From the NCBI GenBank assembly GCA_964016885.1, contig OZ024740.1, forward strand, positions 282,038,001 to 282,102,000: 64,000 bases of DNA, in the 5' to 3' direction. The notes under the pieces were generated by a model. It ran no database searches. It was not told where the DNA came from and saw only the letters and a list, made by a program, of their open reading frames with translations. A program made the position numbers and the translations under genes. Source of the stretch: Eledone cirrhosa (lineage: Eukaryota). Below are positions 39,461-55,472 of the stretch, piece after piece (the first letter of the stretch is position 1; every line of letters starts with the position of its first letter).

Positions 39461-39850
39461 AAACAAATAGTAGAAAGGAAAGAGATTTTTTCAGTAGAAA
39501 ATGCTTCTTTCAGTGTAATATCGAAACATTAATATTTATTTGCAAAGTGGATTGGCAGGTGGATTGGCAGTATCAGTAGAGGGTCGGACGCCATGCTTTC
39601 CAGCATAGTTACGTCCCTTTACGATCTGAGTTCAAATCCCGCCGAGGTTGACTTTGCCTTTCATCCTTACGGGGTCGATAGAATAAAGTACCAGTAATGC
39701 ACTGGGTAATTGCTGGTCTTGTGCCTAAAGTAGAGACAATTAATATTTATTTGCAAAGTGGATATTTCCGCATTTAAAATACCGGTTTCTGCATTATATG
39801 CATTGTCAATTGCAGATATGCATAATATTGGTAAGTTGCATATTTATACA
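39461..39850 (+). repeat. Left arm of a long-range inverted repeat (partner 55318-55472), interrupted by a SINE (about 39548-39740) with a 25-bp TSD
   Basis: aaacaaatagtagaaaggaaagagattttttcagtagaaaatgc...gttgcatatttataca matches the reverse complement of 55318-55472; TSD ATTAATATTTATTTGCAAAGTGGAT. Confidence 0.85.
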
Positions 39851-40199
39851 AATAATAATAATAATAACAATAATAATAATAATAATGATTTCTTTATTGG
39901 CCACAAGGGCTGATATAAAGAAAAGCATTACAGACGGCACAGGAGGGTACATGATGGTACAGGACGGTACGATGTGGGTTTTGTGCGTGTAAATATTTTT
40001 ATTACTTATATAAGAAACGAAAAAGAAAAACGACATAGAAACATATATATTTATATAAACAATAAGAATGAAAATTCAAACAATGAAAAATTCCCCAATA
40101 GGGGAGAAACCTCTGAGTGTTACTCGTGGCGAGAACCGCACAAAAAACCTCGGCTACCCTTGTTACCTGGGCCAGCGCCCTCTCTCAATTTTTTCCCAT

Positions 40200-43100
40200 T
40201 CCTCAAACTACAAGCGTATATTCAGAGCAGTCCCGTTCACTCGGACCATTCTCGCTACATTCACCTACCTTTCAACAAACTTGCTAGAAATAAGCACTTG
40301 CCTCTCCACCCTGATTTTCCTCTTCAAGTGAAACCTAAAACAGTTAATCAGGGATTCGCCGAAGAGGAAAGTGTCTGTCTTTAACCCTTTCAACCTTGTC
40401 CACCACACAATCTCTTTCGTCATGGCCACCAGGCAGATGAAAACAGCCTGCCCTTCCTCCTCGAAGGAAGACAGCGAGACCATCTGCACAATGGACTCAG
40501 TCGATAACTGCGATACACGCGACAGCAACTGTTCGACATAGCTCCACAAGTCAGCAATGCTCGGGTATTGAACGAGTGCGTGCACGACGGTTTAGTCGCT
40601 CTGTGCGCATCTCGGACAGGCTCGGCTGACGGCACTTTCGTGCCTGAAGAGCTTATCTCGAACCGGCAAAGCTCCCTGGTAGCACTGCCAGGCCAGAGAT
40701 TTTTCTTAATTATCCATAGGCCCTGGGCTGAAAGTTCACCGGAAGAGAGCAAACAGCTGATTATCTTCGACGCCCAGGATCTCTCCGAGAACGTCGTCGC
40801 TCTTCCCCTCCACTAGTCCTCTATAGAATTCTGAGGTGGATGTTCCACCGATACTGGTGACCAACTGGGAGAGGGCAGTGTGCGCCTGGAGACATTCCAG
40901 TTTCCAAGCGCTATCCCTCGGTCTTTTTCTGACCCAGGACTGCAGCTCCGTCAAGGAGACGAGCTGTGGGAAAACGTGCCTGGCGAACGGCGACCGCATC
41001 CGTTCACCATCAAGGAAGCACCAGAGATGTCGCAGCCTCAGCGCATGTTTGCGCATCATCAGCCATGGCATGTCCAGTCCTCCACGCAACGGGTGTTGAC
41101 AGCAGATGGATCGTCAGACCATGGGAGCGCGTCCCTTCCACAAAAAGCGGAAGAGGAGGCGCTCCATTTTGATGAGAGTTGGGCTGGAGCAAGGGACGAC
41201 GGTGAGGCGGTAGCAGATGACGGATGCGATGTACGCATTCGCCACTTCCGCCCGGCCTTTCAGGGACAGCTTCCTCTCAGCCCATTTCGGGTGAGGGAGG
41301 CCACCCTGCTCGTCACCTCGTTCCAGTTTTTCTCCATATGGAGGTCCGGTCCGAACCAGACCCCAAGCAATTTAACCGTTCCGTTCAGCGCCCCACGACG
41401 CTGTCGGACGGCATGGACTTTCCACTCCAGGTGCCGAGCTGCAAGCCCACCGACTTTTCCTGGTTTATCTTTGCTCCTGTCACCGCTTCGTATTCCTTGA
41501 GAGCAGTGCCGAGCATCTGAACGTGTCTGGTGCTCGACACCACCACGGTGACGTCGTCAGCGTAAGTCGACTCGGATTTTCCGCATCCTAGTTCGCGTTG
41601 GACACCCCTCATCGCCCCCTGTTTGTGCAGTAACGGCTCGAGAGCCAATACGTACAAGAGGGACGAGAGGGGACAACCCTGTCGGACTGAGCGCATGATG
41701 CTGAACGGCTGCGACAGGTGACCGTTCACCCTCACAACTGAGAAGATGTCGCTGTACATTACTGCGATCCAACTCCTGAAAACGGGCTCGAACCAGCTTC
41801 GTCGAGGACCGCCGCCCGGTACCGATGGTCGACCCTATCGAATGCTTTGGATTGATCCAAGTTGATCAAGGCCTCACTCTTGCCAGGTTCCTTAACCGCC
41901 CTCTCTATGATGTATCGCATGAGGTGGAGGTTGTCGTGTATGCATCTCTCCGGAATGGCGCATGTCTGCGCCTCTCCCACCAGACCCTTGACGACAAGCG
42001 CCAACCTAGTTGCTAACACCTTGGCCAAAATCTTGAACTCTGCGTTTAGCAGGGTTATGGGCCTGAAATTATCGATAACATCCCCCTTGTTCGGGTCTTT
42101 TCTCAGCAGCGCCACTGCTCCCCGGCTCATAAAACTGGGAATGCTCCCGTTCTGCTGGCAGTTGCAGTAGACGTCTGCCAAGAGGTCACCGAACAGTCTG
42201 GCATAAATGCATAACGCTCGTAGGGCAGACCTGGCGATTTACCCCTTGTGCAGTTAGCCATCACTTCCCGTATTTCACCGGCTGTTATTGGCTTTTCGCA
42301 ACACTGTGCTGCGGTCGTCGAGAGCCGAGGCAGTCCGTCGAGGTATGCACTGAAGCCCATGCCCCGATCCGGACCGCCGCCGCTCCCGAACAGTTCAGCA
42401 AAGTGCTGCTGAAAAGCTTCACACATCCGCTCGGCTTCGAGCATCACGCACCCGTTTTGGTCAGACAAAGACCGAATTGTAACTTTGTTTCCACGTCGCG
42501 TCTCTGCCAACCGGGCCATTGGACGGCTTTTGTCCCCTCGTGTTTCAGAGCACGCGCTCTAGCTCTGACAACGCAGCCTTCGTGTTTTGCGTTGAAGAAT
42601 TGGTCGAGTGCCAATCTTACCGCAAGCACGTCGGTTGCGATGCCTGTCCTAAACGCCTCTTCTAGCTTTCTGACTAGCTCTCCCTCTACTCTATTTTCCT
42701 CTATCACTACTCCTTTGCTAAACCTAATCGACTCTACTTTAATTGCCCTTTTCAGGGCGCACCACCACCTGTTGTTGACGACCGCTCCCGTCAACACCCG
42801 CTTAACTAATCCGCTAATCCGGTCTCTGTAGGCTTTGCGCGCCGGGAAAGACGCGTTCAGCTTCCAGTAACCAGGCCCTTGTCTATGAAGTCTGTCTATG
42901 TCGATCTCACAGATCACAAATTTGTGGTCTGTGTAGTCGACTATTTTAAATTGTGGACAACTTATACTAGCCTTATCTAGTTCTCCGCAGAATACCCTAT
43001 CGAGATACGATCTGAATGACCCGATGCGGTTTGTCCATGTCCACATTGGCACATTCGGGTGATACAGTCGATACCTTTCAGACAGTTCAAAACGTATGAG

Positions 43101-43604
43101 CAGGTTGATGAGGCTCTTGCACCCTCCTCCCCTATCCACTTGTCCCACACGATCCCAGCGTGCATCCAAGATACCGTTCCAGTCGCCCACTAACACTAAA
43201 GAGCGGGACGTTCCAAGAAAGGTCTCTAGACGTCTGAAGAAATCTGGCCGTCCTGCCCCTGTTGGGGCGTAGACGGCTACTAGCCTGAAAGCATTGCCTT
43301 CGCTGCCGGTCACGTCCAGCACCACCGACTTACCTTCTGGGTCTAGGAAGATGGCTCGTATGGCGAGACCCAAGCCTCTCCGAAAAAGGACGGCAACCCC
43401 TCCCCCCGATCCTGGACGGCTGGGAGATGCGTATACATCGTAGCCGCCGAAGATCGGTGCCAAGGCCTGTGCTTCGGAGAATCTGGTTTCACTGATGGCC
43501 ACCACATCTATGTTTAGTGACCTGAGGTCATTGAGCAGGTGACCCTGCTTCCAAGATGACCCCAGGCCACGTGCATTTATACTACCTATTCTGAGTACAG
43601 CCAT
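40200..43604 (-). pseudogene. Tx1 copy A ORF2 (AP endonuclease, reverse transcriptase, CCHC), several frameshifts
   Basis: GSINARG, ISET, GDWN, TDHK; FRPITLLN, LDQSKAFDRVDH, VRQGCPLS, YADD; split over many ORFs. Confidence 0.92.
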
Positions 43605-43636
43605 GCTGGATGAGAAACGGGGCAAGTGAGAAAGGG

Positions 43637-54602: not shown

Positions 54603-54907
54603 TACAGTTGCATTTATCTTGCTTTATGTTCATACGAGTTATCACCAAGTCACAACCAGTGACCTCAAGAGACAACAAGGTCCGCCATGTTCAAGAAAGA
54701 ACATACATACTCACACATGCATCTTTAGTGTTTAGACTTGTGATGTACTTATATTGACAGAATCTTCCTTAGTATATGGGCAGTTCCCATTAGTACTATC
54801 TTTTGTATTTCTCGTATACGCGGGTTTCCTGGGATTTGCGATAAGTAATCATTAGACCCTTAGGTATCATTCCCAGAGCGCCTACAACCACTGGTATTGT
54901 TTTAGTT
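54603..54907 (-). mobile_element. 3' fragment of a second R4-type family
   Basis: KTIPVVVGALGMIPK / DYLSQIPGNPRIREIQKIVLMGTAHILRKILSI* (1-nt frameshift); different 3' UTR. Confidence 0.75.
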
Positions 54908-54942
54908 TATTATTATTATTATTATTATTATTGTTGTTGTTA

Positions 54943-55266
54943 TTCCTTGAATCTCAGTCATTGATGTTGGTTAACTGGAAAGTCCGTTGGATTGAATATC
55001 AAGCCACTACCTGCAGCCTCAGATATTCAGGACGTATCGGAGGGTTCTTGCTGTTCCAAGCAAGCATGCCTTTTGAAGCGTTCCAAAAAGCGTGAAGGGG
55101 CCGATTTTCTTTAACCATCCCTGGAAACTTTTGGAGATAGTCCCCAGTGCGCCTATGACAATCGGGATCACTTTGACTTCATGGCAGTTCCAAATCCTTT
55201 TCACCTCCCACTTTAGGTCCTGGTATCGGTTAATTTTCTCCCTCTCCTTCTCTTGCACTCTCGTGT
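54943..55266 (-). mobile_element. 5'-truncated R4/Dong-type LINE, third copy of the main family
   Basis: TRVQEKEREKINRYQDL...LRYVLNI* plus the shared 3' UTR. Confidence 0.88.
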
Positions 55267-55317
55267 TATTATTATTATTATTATTATTATTATCATTATT
55301 ATTATTATTATTATTAT

Positions 55318-55472
55318 GTGTATAAATATGCAACTTAACAATATTATGCAATTGACAATGCATATAATGTTGAAACCGGTATTGTAAATAAATTAATGTT
55401 TTGATATTTCACTGAAAGAATCTCTTCAGCATTTTCTACTGAAAAAATCTTTTTCCTTTCTACAATTTGTTT
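55318..55472 (-). repeat. Right arm of the long-range inverted repeat, with a decayed HHR
   Basis: Minus strand: AAATG-CTGAAGA-GAT...ATC-AAAAC ATTAAT. Confidence 0.8.

What the first reader, a model, noticed from the sequence alone, without database searches (positions are those of the whole stretch)
39461..55472. 15.5-kb LINE array inside an inverted repeat, sorted by microsatellite strand
Seen: arms at 39461-39850 and 55318-55472 are inverted copies, each ending inward in (AAT)n. Each retains the HHR core half the other lost (GAAAC left, CTGAAGA right). Left of 52854 all spacers read (AAT)n on + and hold three Tx1 copies. Right of it all spacers read (ATT)n and hold five R4-type pieces. Every LINE is on the minus strand. 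Known: Dong (R4 clade) targets TAA repeats and some Tx1 families are microsatellite-specific. Inference: an APE LINE and an REL LINE use the same triplet repeat in opposite polarity, and only insertions antisense to the host gene survived, partitioning them between the two halves.
Basis: partly seen in the sequence, partly recalled or inferred. Interest (0 to 1): 0.72.

Follow-up and report, generated by a model that had tools for sequence, protein, structure and literature searches.

The report
Two LINE families fill palindromic MITE
Two unrelated jumping-gene families that enter the same AAT repeat from opposite strands have filled the two mirror-image halves of a small palindromic transposon inside an intron of an octopus-type MFSD6 gene, so both lie on the strand opposite the gene; whether the gene selected that orientation is possible but untested.

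Summary
The two "arms" are the halves of one copy of a high-copy foldback MITE, not hammerhead-ribozyme relics. Intact copies carry a short (AAT)n seed inside the left arm and its mirror (ATT)n inside the right arm.

Three Tx1-like LINEs (APE + RT) sit in the left half. Five Dong/R4-like pieces (RT + restriction-like endonuclease) sit in the right half. All are on the minus strand.

In 87 other loci of the same genome, 184 of 185 element-end/repeat junctions obey one rule. Tx1-like elements and a partner SINE have (ATT)n on their sense strand; R4-like elements have (TAA)n. The claim of opposite polarity on one repeat is therefore strongly supported. On a palindrome it puts both families on one strand by geometry.

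The array fills 71% of the last intron of a plus-strand MFSD6 gene, so every LINE is antisense to the host. Selection as the cause is plausible: rough neutral models give 0.2-0.7%. But that figure is post hoc, from one locus, and untested.

This scan already noted the two-clade sharing in two other windows of this genome. The papers I searched report no Tx1-type (ATT)n target.

The parts
33271..33402 (+). MFSD6 exon (aa 778-820 of the octopus protein P0248), followed by the splice donor GT at 33403. This is the upstream border of the host intron.
   Evidence: tblastn 93% identity; sequence
39447..39552 (+). Foldback-MITE left arm, outer part. It is preceded by (TC)n at 39304-39420 and (TA)n at 39420-39461.
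39547..39745 (+). SINE inserted in the left arm, flanked by the 25-bp direct repeat 39528-39552 / 39739-39763. Its 3' 35 nt resemble the Tx1-like 3' end.
39764..39850 (+). Foldback-MITE left arm, inner part.
39851..39886 (.). (AAT)12 tract: the left seed of the MITE, expanded, and the tail of Tx1-like copy 1.
39887..45905 (-). Tx1-like LINE copy 1, full length (about 6.0 kb) and degenerate, with many stops. APE and RT domains are present.
45907..45936 (.). (AAT)n spacer.
45937..51968 (-). Tx1-like LINE copy 2, full length. ORF2 at 46188-49802 has one in-frame stop. Its 5' 250 bp are 97.6-98.8% identical to 29 other genomic copies.
51969..51984 (.). (AAT)n spacer.
51985..52854 (-). Tx1-like LINE copy 3: the 3' 0.87 kb only. 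It ends at 52854 directly against an R4-like fragment.
52855..52996 (-). 142-bp internal fragment of the R4-like LINE, from about 2.4 kb upstream of that element's 3' end. It has no tail. The junction shows a 2-nt overlap plus nearby similarity.
52997..53015 (.). (ATT)n spacer.
53016..54040 (-). R4/Dong-like piece A: the 3' 1.0 kb, 5'-truncated.
54041..54067 (.). (ATT)9 spacer.
54068..54575 (-). R4/Dong-like piece B: the 3' 0.5 kb. Its 3' 250 bp are 97.6-99.2% identical to 29 genomic copies.
54576..54604 (.). (TAT)n spacer.
54605..54906 (-). 3' 0.3 kb of a second R4-type subfamily, 98.7% identical to a genomic copy.
54907..54944 (.). (TTA)n spacer.
54945..55265 (-). R4/Dong-like piece C: the 3' 0.3 kb.
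55266..55317 (.). (TTA)17 tract: the right seed of the MITE, expanded.
55318..55486 (+). Foldback-MITE right arm, 88-92% identical to the copies listed genome-wide (at least 1621 first-look candidates).
55848..55964 (+). Last coding exon of MFSD6 (aa 821-858 plus TGA), behind the acceptor ttttgcag and about 360 bp from the MITE.

Best explanation
One copy of a foldback MITE in the last intron of a plus-strand MFSD6 gene carries mirror-image (AAT)n/(ATT)n seeds, and two microsatellite-specific LINE families of fixed, opposite polarity have inserted into them repeatedly, which likely explains by geometry alone why both families lie on one strand.

Shown: the arms belong to a high-copy palindromic element. 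Its intact copies read arm-ATAATAATAAT-centre-ATTATTATTAT-arm. The Tx1-like element (APE + RT + zf-RVT, about 6.0 kb) and its partner SINE are always bounded by (ATT)n on their sense strand. The Dong/R4-like element (one 1129-aa ORF with RT, a CCHC motif and a restriction-like endonuclease, 4.8 kb) is always bounded by (TAA)n.

Inferred from the accepted target-primed reverse transcription model: each endonuclease nicks the strand that can pair with its own RNA tail. The two families would therefore nick opposite strands of one duplex, and each insertion regenerates the tract on both sides. That would allow arrays to build up.

In this copy the left seed took three Tx1-like elements and the right seed took at least four R4-like elements, from different subfamilies and of different ages. 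The MITE centre is gone. The Tx1-like copy 3 / R4-like fragment junction at 52854/52855 is either one microhomology-assisted deletion or a template switch.

Why only the two antisense combinations occur is open. I put about 40% on selection against sense LINEs and otherwise attribute it to insertion history.
For: MITE identity. The right arm has at least 1621 first-look candidates, and 39 non-self matches were scored at 88-92% identity. Six of 19 fetched loci hold both arms in the same inward-facing layout, 134-1080 bp apart. The inner seeds and palindromic centre were read in 5 of them. Inner seeds were seen in most of 25 arms, and 5 of 25 are already occupied by a Tx1-like element or a SINE.

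Element identity. The Tx1-like copies have Exo_endo_phos, RVT_1 and zf-RVT domains. Their best solved relative is human L1 ORF2p, E 1.4e-22. The only clade-bearing names among the 120 listed homologues are 'transposon TX1 ... 149 kDa protein' (P0060, P0114). An intact R4-like ORF lies at L094:2244-5633. It aligns to R2 proteins over residues 403-1090, including the RPD..D..EK..Y endonuclease block, E 6e-30. No APE domain was found in it.

Polarity. 184 of 185 adjacencies in 87 loci obey the rule. R4-like 3' ends: 29 of 29. Tx1-like 5' ends: 29 of 29. Among Tx1-like 3' ends, 0 of 29 are in the reversed repeat, and 3 of 29 show little or no repeat. 5'-truncated R4-like copies are mostly bounded upstream by the same repeat.

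Independent insertions. The Tx1-like copies are 75-86% identical to each other, and the R4-like pieces 84-95%. Copy 2 and piece B are 98-99% identical to copies elsewhere.

Host gene. Junction.
Against: The clade labels Tx1 and R4/Dong rest on architecture, target, names of relatives and a published octopus repeat census. They do not rest on an RT phylogeny with reference elements.

The strand nicked by each endonuclease is inferred, not measured.

The two arms are no more similar to each other (86%) than to other family copies (about 90%). That they are one MITE copy therefore rests on geometry and a few shared variants.

The MITE target-site duplication cannot be read because the element sits in (TA)n.

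Public contigs were too short to confirm the assembly across the array.

One of 185 adjacencies breaks the rule (L063, an internally broken R4-like fragment).

The purity of both halves is unlikely under my two rough neutral models (0.2-0.7%). Geometry alone may therefore not be the whole story.
Confidence: 0.8

Rival explanations
1. Selection by the host gene sorted the array. Insertions arose in all four family-by-half combinations. Sense-strand LINEs in the last MFSD6 intron were removed, for example because the Tx1-like 3' end carries AATAAA in sense, leaving only antisense copies. This adds to the geometric explanation rather than replacing it.
For: The array is in an intron of a plus-strand gene, 360 bp from the acceptor. 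All 8 pieces, plus a ninth Tx1-like piece at 30824-31352, are antisense. Elsewhere in the genome mixed arrays are common: of 17 annotated neighbours of R4-like tails, 10 are Tx1-like or SINE in opposite orientation, 6 are R4-like tandems and 1 is an R4-like fragment in opposite orientation. Neutral estimates for so pure an array are 0.2-0.7%. The Tx1-like sense 3' end reads ...CCAATAAAGAAATC(ATT)n.
Against: This is one locus picked because it looked sorted, and the models are crude. SINEs, which obey the Tx1-like polarity, are mostly sense in this gene (10 sense and 4 antisense 3' ends). The 264 kb examined hold almost no other copies of these LINEs, so there is no independent sample. A deletion that removed the MITE centre may also have removed other copies. 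No expression data could be obtained.
Confidence: 0.4
2. The triplet repeats are only the LINEs' own tails, with no target specificity, and the array grew by local tandem duplication or unequal crossing-over.
For: Every spacer is also the 3' tail of the element beside it.
Against: Full-length Tx1-like 5' ends are preceded by (ATT)n in 29 of 29 other loci. 5'-truncated R4-like copies are bounded upstream by the repeat. The copies in the array are 75-95% identical to each other, while some are 98-99% identical to copies elsewhere, and their truncation points differ.
Confidence: 0.03
3. The inverted arms and the array are an assembly artefact or a recent inverted duplication, not a single invaded transposon.
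For: Public contigs could not bridge the array. Only the unique flanks 38500-39294 and 55844-56100 were matched without differences.
Against: The same inward-facing arm pair occurs in 6 of 19 other fetched loci. The copies in the array are diverged from one another, and every junction has the family-typical structure. Collapsed or chimeric assemblies do not produce that pattern.
Confidence: 0.05
4. The arms are relics of a hammerhead-ribozyme-bearing element (a retrozyme or Penelope-like repeat), each keeping one half of the catalytic core.
For: GAAAC is present in the left arm and CTGAAGA in the right arm.
Against: Rfam gives no hammerhead at E <= 1 in 38500-56500 or in 5 intact family copies. 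Of 25 other arms, 0 have TCGAAACA, 23 have TCAAAACA and only 3 have CTGAAGA. Both strings are late private changes.
Confidence: 0.02

Closest known systems
Dong (R4 clade), the (TAA)n-specific LINE with a restriction-like endonuclease, from Bombyx, Anopheles and a snail
   Same: It has a single ORF with RT followed by a CCHC motif and a PD-(D/E)XK-type endonuclease. It inserts in (TAA)n in one orientation, with the repeat on both sides. Dong is listed as TAA-specific in passages of PMC3812793. 'Dong-R4' is the most active LINE group in the Octopus vulgaris census (Table 1 passage of PMC13282606).
   Different: Clade placement by RT phylogeny was not done here. Bombyx Dong has a 5' HDV-like ribozyme (passages of PMC3774820), and Rfam found none in a full-length copy. 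In this genome its tracts are shared with a second LINE family that uses the other strand.
Microsatellite-specific Tx1-clade LINEs: Kibi (TC)n, Koshi (TTC)n, and crocodilian Tx1 families in (TTCC)n/(TTTC)n
   Same: It is an APE-type, L1-group element with target-specific insertion into a microsatellite and a likely dependent SINE. Such Tx1 families and Tx1-mobilised SINEs are described in passages of PMC4494074 and PMC3812793.
   Different: The target here is (ATT)n, the complement of the Dong target. Searches, and the passages read, name no Tx1 family with an AT-only triplet target and no pairing with Dong. Tx1 clade membership is indirect (names of relatives).
Foldback elements and long-TIR MITEs that sit in (TA)n, such as Micron in rice
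   Same: It is a near-perfect palindrome of about 0.5-0.6 kb, present in high copy number, non-coding and embedded in (TA)n. Micron's TA-microsatellite targeting is mentioned in a passage of PMC3812793.
   Different: No autonomous partner or superfamily was identified, and the target-site duplication is unreadable. Its role here is passive: it supplies two mirror-image triplet seeds.
Antisense bias of intronic LINEs, as for mammalian L1 (recalled from general knowledge, not read here)
   Same: All LINE pieces in this intron oppose the host gene.
   Different: Here orientation is fixed by the polarity of the target repeat, so any bias must act through which family survives in which half. No genome-wide bias was measured.

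Membership tests
Dong / R4 clade LINE | Insertion into (TAA)n in one fixed orientation, with the repeat on both sides | tested here: met
   29 of 29 3' ends. 5'-truncated copies are bounded upstream by the repeat. 63 of 64 R4 adjacencies obey the rule.
Dong / R4 clade LINE | Single ORF with RT followed by CCHC and a restriction-like endonuclease, and no APE domain | tested here: met
   1129-aa ORF. It aligns to R2 proteins through the RPD..D..K block, E 6e-30. Pfam finds RVT_1 only.
Dong / R4 clade LINE | RT phylogeny groups it with R4, Dong and Rex6 rather than R2, NeSL, HERO or CRE | not testable with these tools
   No reference element sequences could be fetched. The 120 listed homologues carry no clade names.
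Dong / R4 clade LINE | 5' HDV-like self-cleaving ribozyme, shown for Bombyx Dong | tested here: inconclusive
   Rfam gives no match at E <= 1 in L094:800-5800. Such ribozymes are often missed by models.
Tx1 clade (L1 group) LINE | ORF2 with N-terminal APE, RT and a C-terminal zinc-binding domain | tested here: met
   Exo_endo_phos, RVT_1 and zf-RVT. The best solved relative is L1 ORF2p.
Tx1 clade (L1 group) LINE | Sequence-specific insertion into a repeated target | tested here: met
   29 of 29 5' ends and 26 of 29 3' ends lie in (ATT)n. 91 of 91 Tx1 adjacencies obey the rule.
Tx1 clade (L1 group) LINE | RT phylogeny groups it with Tx1L, Keno, Kibi and Koshi rather than L1 proper | tested here: inconclusive
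   Indirect evidence only. Two relatives are named 'transposon TX1 149 kDa protein', at 212 and 184 bits, against 83 bits for human L1 ORF2p.
Hammerhead ribozyme | Conserved core (CUGANGA ... GAAA) within three helices, matching an Rfam hammerhead model | tested here: not met
   No hammerhead at E <= 1. The core strings are absent from the family consensus.
Foldback / MITE DNA transposon | Long inverted arms, small size, no coding capacity and high copy number | tested here: met
   At least 1621 candidates. Six paired-arm loci; 5 of them read in sequence, about 0.5-0.6 kb.
Foldback / MITE DNA transposon | Target-site duplication diagnostic of a superfamily | tested here: inconclusive
   Copies sit in (TA)n on both sides, so no duplication can be read.

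The most novel reading that the evidence does not exclude
Because both LINE families obey a strict repeat polarity, every intronic copy of this palindromic MITE offers both orientations at one site with equal target. It is therefore a built-in control for insertion bias. The all-antisense array in MFSD6 would then be a direct readout of strong selection against sense-strand LINEs. The MITE family would also let the orientation cost of LINEs be measured genome-wide in a cephalopod.
Probability: 0.3. Interest if true: 0.65.

Novelty: new variant of a known kind. Interest (0 to 1): 0.5.

Why it matters
Microsatellite-specific LINEs are known one family at a time. Here two unrelated enzymatic types, an APE endonuclease and a restriction-like endonuclease, share one duplex repeat by using opposite strands. 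Each one's tail renews the other's target. A very abundant SINE follows the APE element's rule.

That would help explain how AAT tracts in this 3-Gb genome grow into LINE stacks of tens of kilobases. It also shows a passive role for a foldback MITE as a spreader of two-sided landing pads.

The palindrome separates insertion polarity from host-gene orientation. That makes the cause of antisense LINE bias testable by a simple census. For annotation, it warns that such inverted arms are not ribozyme relics.

Tried and rejected
Hammerhead reading: rejected.

The second, without that part, gave only short contigs. The longest unique pieces were about 650 nt on the flanks, and the many 'joints' were repeat cross-matches. 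The assembly across the array is therefore neither confirmed nor contradicted.

Host gene: a Pfam scan of 38 ORFs of at least 90 aa outside the array found nothing usable, only a sub-threshold 7tm_1 hit on the minus strand. The gene appeared only with 60-89-aa ORFs.

Independent orientation sample: I fetched 200 kb around the window. It holds almost no further copies of the two LINE families, so it added no power.

Clade naming through homologue names: uninformative for the R4-like element.

Rfam search for a 5' ribozyme in a full-length R4-like copy: nothing.

Earlier-notes look-ups by place, by arm sequence and by MITE words: nothing.

Tandem duplication as the origin of the array: rejected on divergence and flanks.

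No structure prediction or complex prediction was run, because none bears on the question.

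
Full report
**What is there**

The window lies in a 3.0-Gb animal genome, at C1:282038001-282102000.
- Two inverted matches join 39447-39545 with 55486-55382 (86.0%, E 1.6e-29) and 39772-39889 with 55389-55280 (86.4%, E 6e-35).
- The gap in the left arm is a 199-bp SINE at 39547-39745. It also occurs at 59037-59241 and is flanked by a 25-bp direct repeat.
- Three copies of a roughly 6-kb element follow, at 39887-45905, 45937-51968 and 51985-52854. They are separated by (AAT)n.
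- Five shorter pieces come next, separated by (ATT)n, (TAT)n or (TTA)n.
- All coding signal is on the minus strand.

**The arms are a foldback MITE, not ribozyme relics**

The right arm has at least 1621 first-look candidates in the genome. The 39 non-self matches that were scored are 88-92% identical. In 6 of the 19 other loci fetched, a second arm faces it in the same inward layout, 134-1080 bp away.

Five such copies were read in sequence. They show arm - ATAATAATAAT - palindromic centre - ATTATTATTAT - arm, embedded in (TA)n. Most of 25 arms examined keep the short inner triplet seed. In 5 of 25 the seed is already occupied by a Tx1-like 3' end (L007) or a SINE (L010, L011, L015, L020), always in the predicted orientation.

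Rfam reports no hammerhead at E <= 1 in 38500-56500 or in five intact copies. The left arm reads GAAAC where 23 of 25 other arms read CAAAAC and none reads CGAAAC. CTGAAGA occurs in only 3 of 25 arms. The two "core halves" are therefore private substitutions.

**The two LINE families**

The 6-kb element encodes Exo_endo_phos, RVT_1 and zf-RVT domains. Copy 2 has an ORF2 of 1204 codons with one stop. Its best solved relative is human L1 ORF2p, E 1.4e-22 and 83 bits. Among the 120 listed homologues, the only clade-bearing names are "transposon TX1 ... 149 kDa protein": P0060 at 212 bits and P0114. I call it Tx1-like. No RT phylogeny was possible.

The short pieces encode the C-terminus of a protein whose intact form was found elsewhere, at L094:2244-5633 (1129 aa). 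That element is 4807 bp long. Pfam sees only RVT_1 and no APE domain. phmmer aligns residues 403-1090 to R2 proteins (9nl3, 9dou; E 6e-30 and 1e-29). The alignment runs through the RPD...D...EK..Y restriction-like endonuclease block.

With its (TAA)n target this matches Dong of the R4 clade, which passages of PMC3812793 list as TAA-specific. A census of Octopus vulgaris lists Dong-R4 (5 families, 1129 recent insertions) and L1-Tx1 (13 families, 421) among active LINEs (Table 1 passage of PMC13282606). The family here is very large, with at least 37,942 first-look candidates.

The piece at 52855-52996 is an internal 142-bp fragment of this element, 93% identical to L082:7569-7706 and 2541-2678. 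The piece at 54605-54906 belongs to a second R4-type subfamily, 98.7% identical to a genomic copy.

**Polarity, tested genome-wide**

I fetched 29 other loci for each of three element ends.
- R4-like 3' ends: 29 of 29 are followed by (TAA)n on the sense strand.
- 5'-truncated R4-like copies are mostly bounded upstream by the same repeat.
- Tx1-like 3' ends: 26 of 29 are followed by (ATT)n on the sense strand, 3 show little or no repeat and none is reversed.
- 5' ends of the copy-2 subfamily: 29 of 29 are directly preceded by (ATT)n.

A scripted check covered every element end that abuts a triplet tract in these 87 loci. It found 184 adjacencies obeying the rule and 1 breaking it. The counts are Tx1-like 91, SINE 30 and R4-like 63. 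The exception, in L063, is an internally broken R4-like fragment and not an insertion end.

The two families often share a tract.
- Of 29 Tx1-like tails, 9 abut an R4-like element in opposite orientation.
- Of 29 R4-like tails, 7 abut a Tx1-like element and 3 a SINE in opposite orientation, 6 abut an R4-like tandem, 1 abuts an R4-like fragment in opposite orientation, and 12 have no annotated neighbour.

The SINE's last 35 nt resemble the Tx1-like 3' end. This fits a LINE-SINE partnership.

**How it likely works**

Shown: strict and opposite strand rules, repeat on both sides of inserts, and recurrent use of the MITE seeds.

Inferred from the target-primed reverse transcription model: each endonuclease nicks the strand that pairs with its RNA tail, (AUU)n or (UAA)n. 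The families would then nick opposite strands, and each insertion renews the tract.

On a palindrome the left seed reads AAT and the right seed ATT on the plus strand. A Tx1-like element in the left half and an R4-like element in the right half are therefore both minus. The "sorting by microsatellite strand" is this geometry.

The inserts are independent events. The Tx1-like copies are 75-86% identical to each other, and the R4-like pieces 84-95%. Copy 2 and piece B are 98-99% identical to copies elsewhere.

The MITE centre is missing. Tx1-like homology ends at 52854 and R4-like homology starts at 52853. The overlap is 2 nt, and both parents share a CCCAGG(G)ATC stretch just upstream. One microhomology-assisted deletion or a template switch would explain this. 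I cannot tell which.

**The host gene**

ORFs of 60-89 aa gave two MFS_1_like hits on the plus strand. One exon is 100% identical to "MFSD6 [Octopus bimaculoides]" (P0248). tblastn maps the exons as follows, with canonical splice sites:

| Protein residues | Window coordinates |
|---|---|
| aa 1-585 | -27231 to -25498 |
| aa 580-637 | 10953-11126 |
| through aa 670 | 19401-19564 |
| aa 667-753 | 22748-23008 |
| aa 752-777 | 26274-26351 |
| aa 778-820 | 33271-33402 |
| aa 821-858 | 55848-55961, then TGA |

The array (16.0 kb) fills 71% of the last intron, 33403-55847. It ends about 360 bp before the acceptor. All eight pieces, and a ninth Tx1-like fragment at 30824-31352, are antisense to MFSD6.

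**Selection or history?**

Polarity allows four family-by-half combinations, and only the two antisense ones occur. A simple urn model gives 0.2-0.4% for this outcome, or 0.4-0.7% for either strand. Genome-wide neighbour frequencies give about 0.3%.

Against reading much into this:
- The locus was chosen because it looked sorted.
- The models are crude.
- The lost centre may have held other copies.
- SINEs in the gene are mostly sense, 10 against 4, compared with 17 against 16 outside.
- The 264 kb examined hold almost no other copies of these LINEs.

The Tx1-like sense 3' end carries AATAAA, a possible cost of sense copies. I rate selection as a contributor at about 40%.

**Known and new**

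Microsatellite-specific LINEs are established. Passages of PMC3812793 and PMC4494074 list Waldo, Mino, Kibi, Koshi, Dong and crocodilian Tx1 families in (TTCC)n/(TTTC)n. PMC4640811 adds Togen and HERO families.

My searches, and the passages read, name no Tx1-type element with an (ATT)n target and no pairing with Dong. Supplements and Repbase were not seen and may hold such families.

Two earlier notes of this scan on other windows of this genome (e1-9593260, e1-9570778) describe the same two-clade sharing. New here are three points: the foldback MITE as a two-sided seed, the resulting same-strand layout inside a mapped intron, and the chimeric junction.

**Limits**

Assembly support could not be obtained. 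Clade labels lack a phylogeny. The strand each endonuclease nicks is inferred.

Noticed in passing
window 39547-39745, 59037-59241 and 15 further copies (e.g. 10729-10907, 17822-18007, 30616-30800): An abundant SINE of about 190 bp has a last 35 nt that resemble the Tx1-like LINE 3' end. It obeys the same (ATT)n polarity in 30 of 30 adjacencies, so it is a likely non-autonomous partner. In the MFSD6 coding span its 3' ends are 10 sense and 4 antisense; outside the gene they are 17 and 16.
   Followed up: partly
window 52840-52860: The junction between a Tx1-like fragment and an internal R4-like fragment has no repeat spacer. It shows a 2-nt overlap, and both parents share a CCCAGG(G)ATC stretch just upstream. 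This is either a LINE-LINE template switch or a microhomology-assisted deletion that also removed the MITE centre.
   Followed up: partly
window 30616-31352: In the preceding MFSD6 intron a SINE and a 0.5-kb Tx1-like 3' fragment lie next to each other on the minus strand. This is a small array of the same kind.
   Followed up: no
window 55552-55679: A 128-bp near-perfect hairpin (83% complementary arms) lies between the MITE and the last MFSD6 exon. Rfam gives only a sub-threshold miRNA-like match. It is probably another small palindromic repeat.
   Followed up: no
window 55680-55765; also in L020, L068 and L114: The stretch just right of the MITE recurs at other loci and ends in (ATT)n. It is a further repeat family associated with the same triplet tracts.
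   Followed up: no
L094:5700-5730 and several loci: Tail-to-tail R4-like and Tx1-like copies can be separated by as few as three AAT units. Very short tracts therefore suffice as targets.
   Followed up: no
window 39304-39461 and the outer flanks of the MITE family: The MITE family sits in (TA)n. In about 8 of 25 arms a conserved segment of about 30 nt (…GTGTTACTTTTCTACATTCGA) lies beyond a first (TA)n run. The true element ends may therefore lie further out than the arms used here. In the window the left flank has a 117-bp (TC)n instead.
   Followed up: no
L063 (G000:C4:363208634-363211883): This is the only exception to the polarity rule among 185 adjacencies. A 3'-truncated R4-like fragment lies in inverted orientation beside another R4-like copy, possibly a twin-priming-type inversion.
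   Followed up: no
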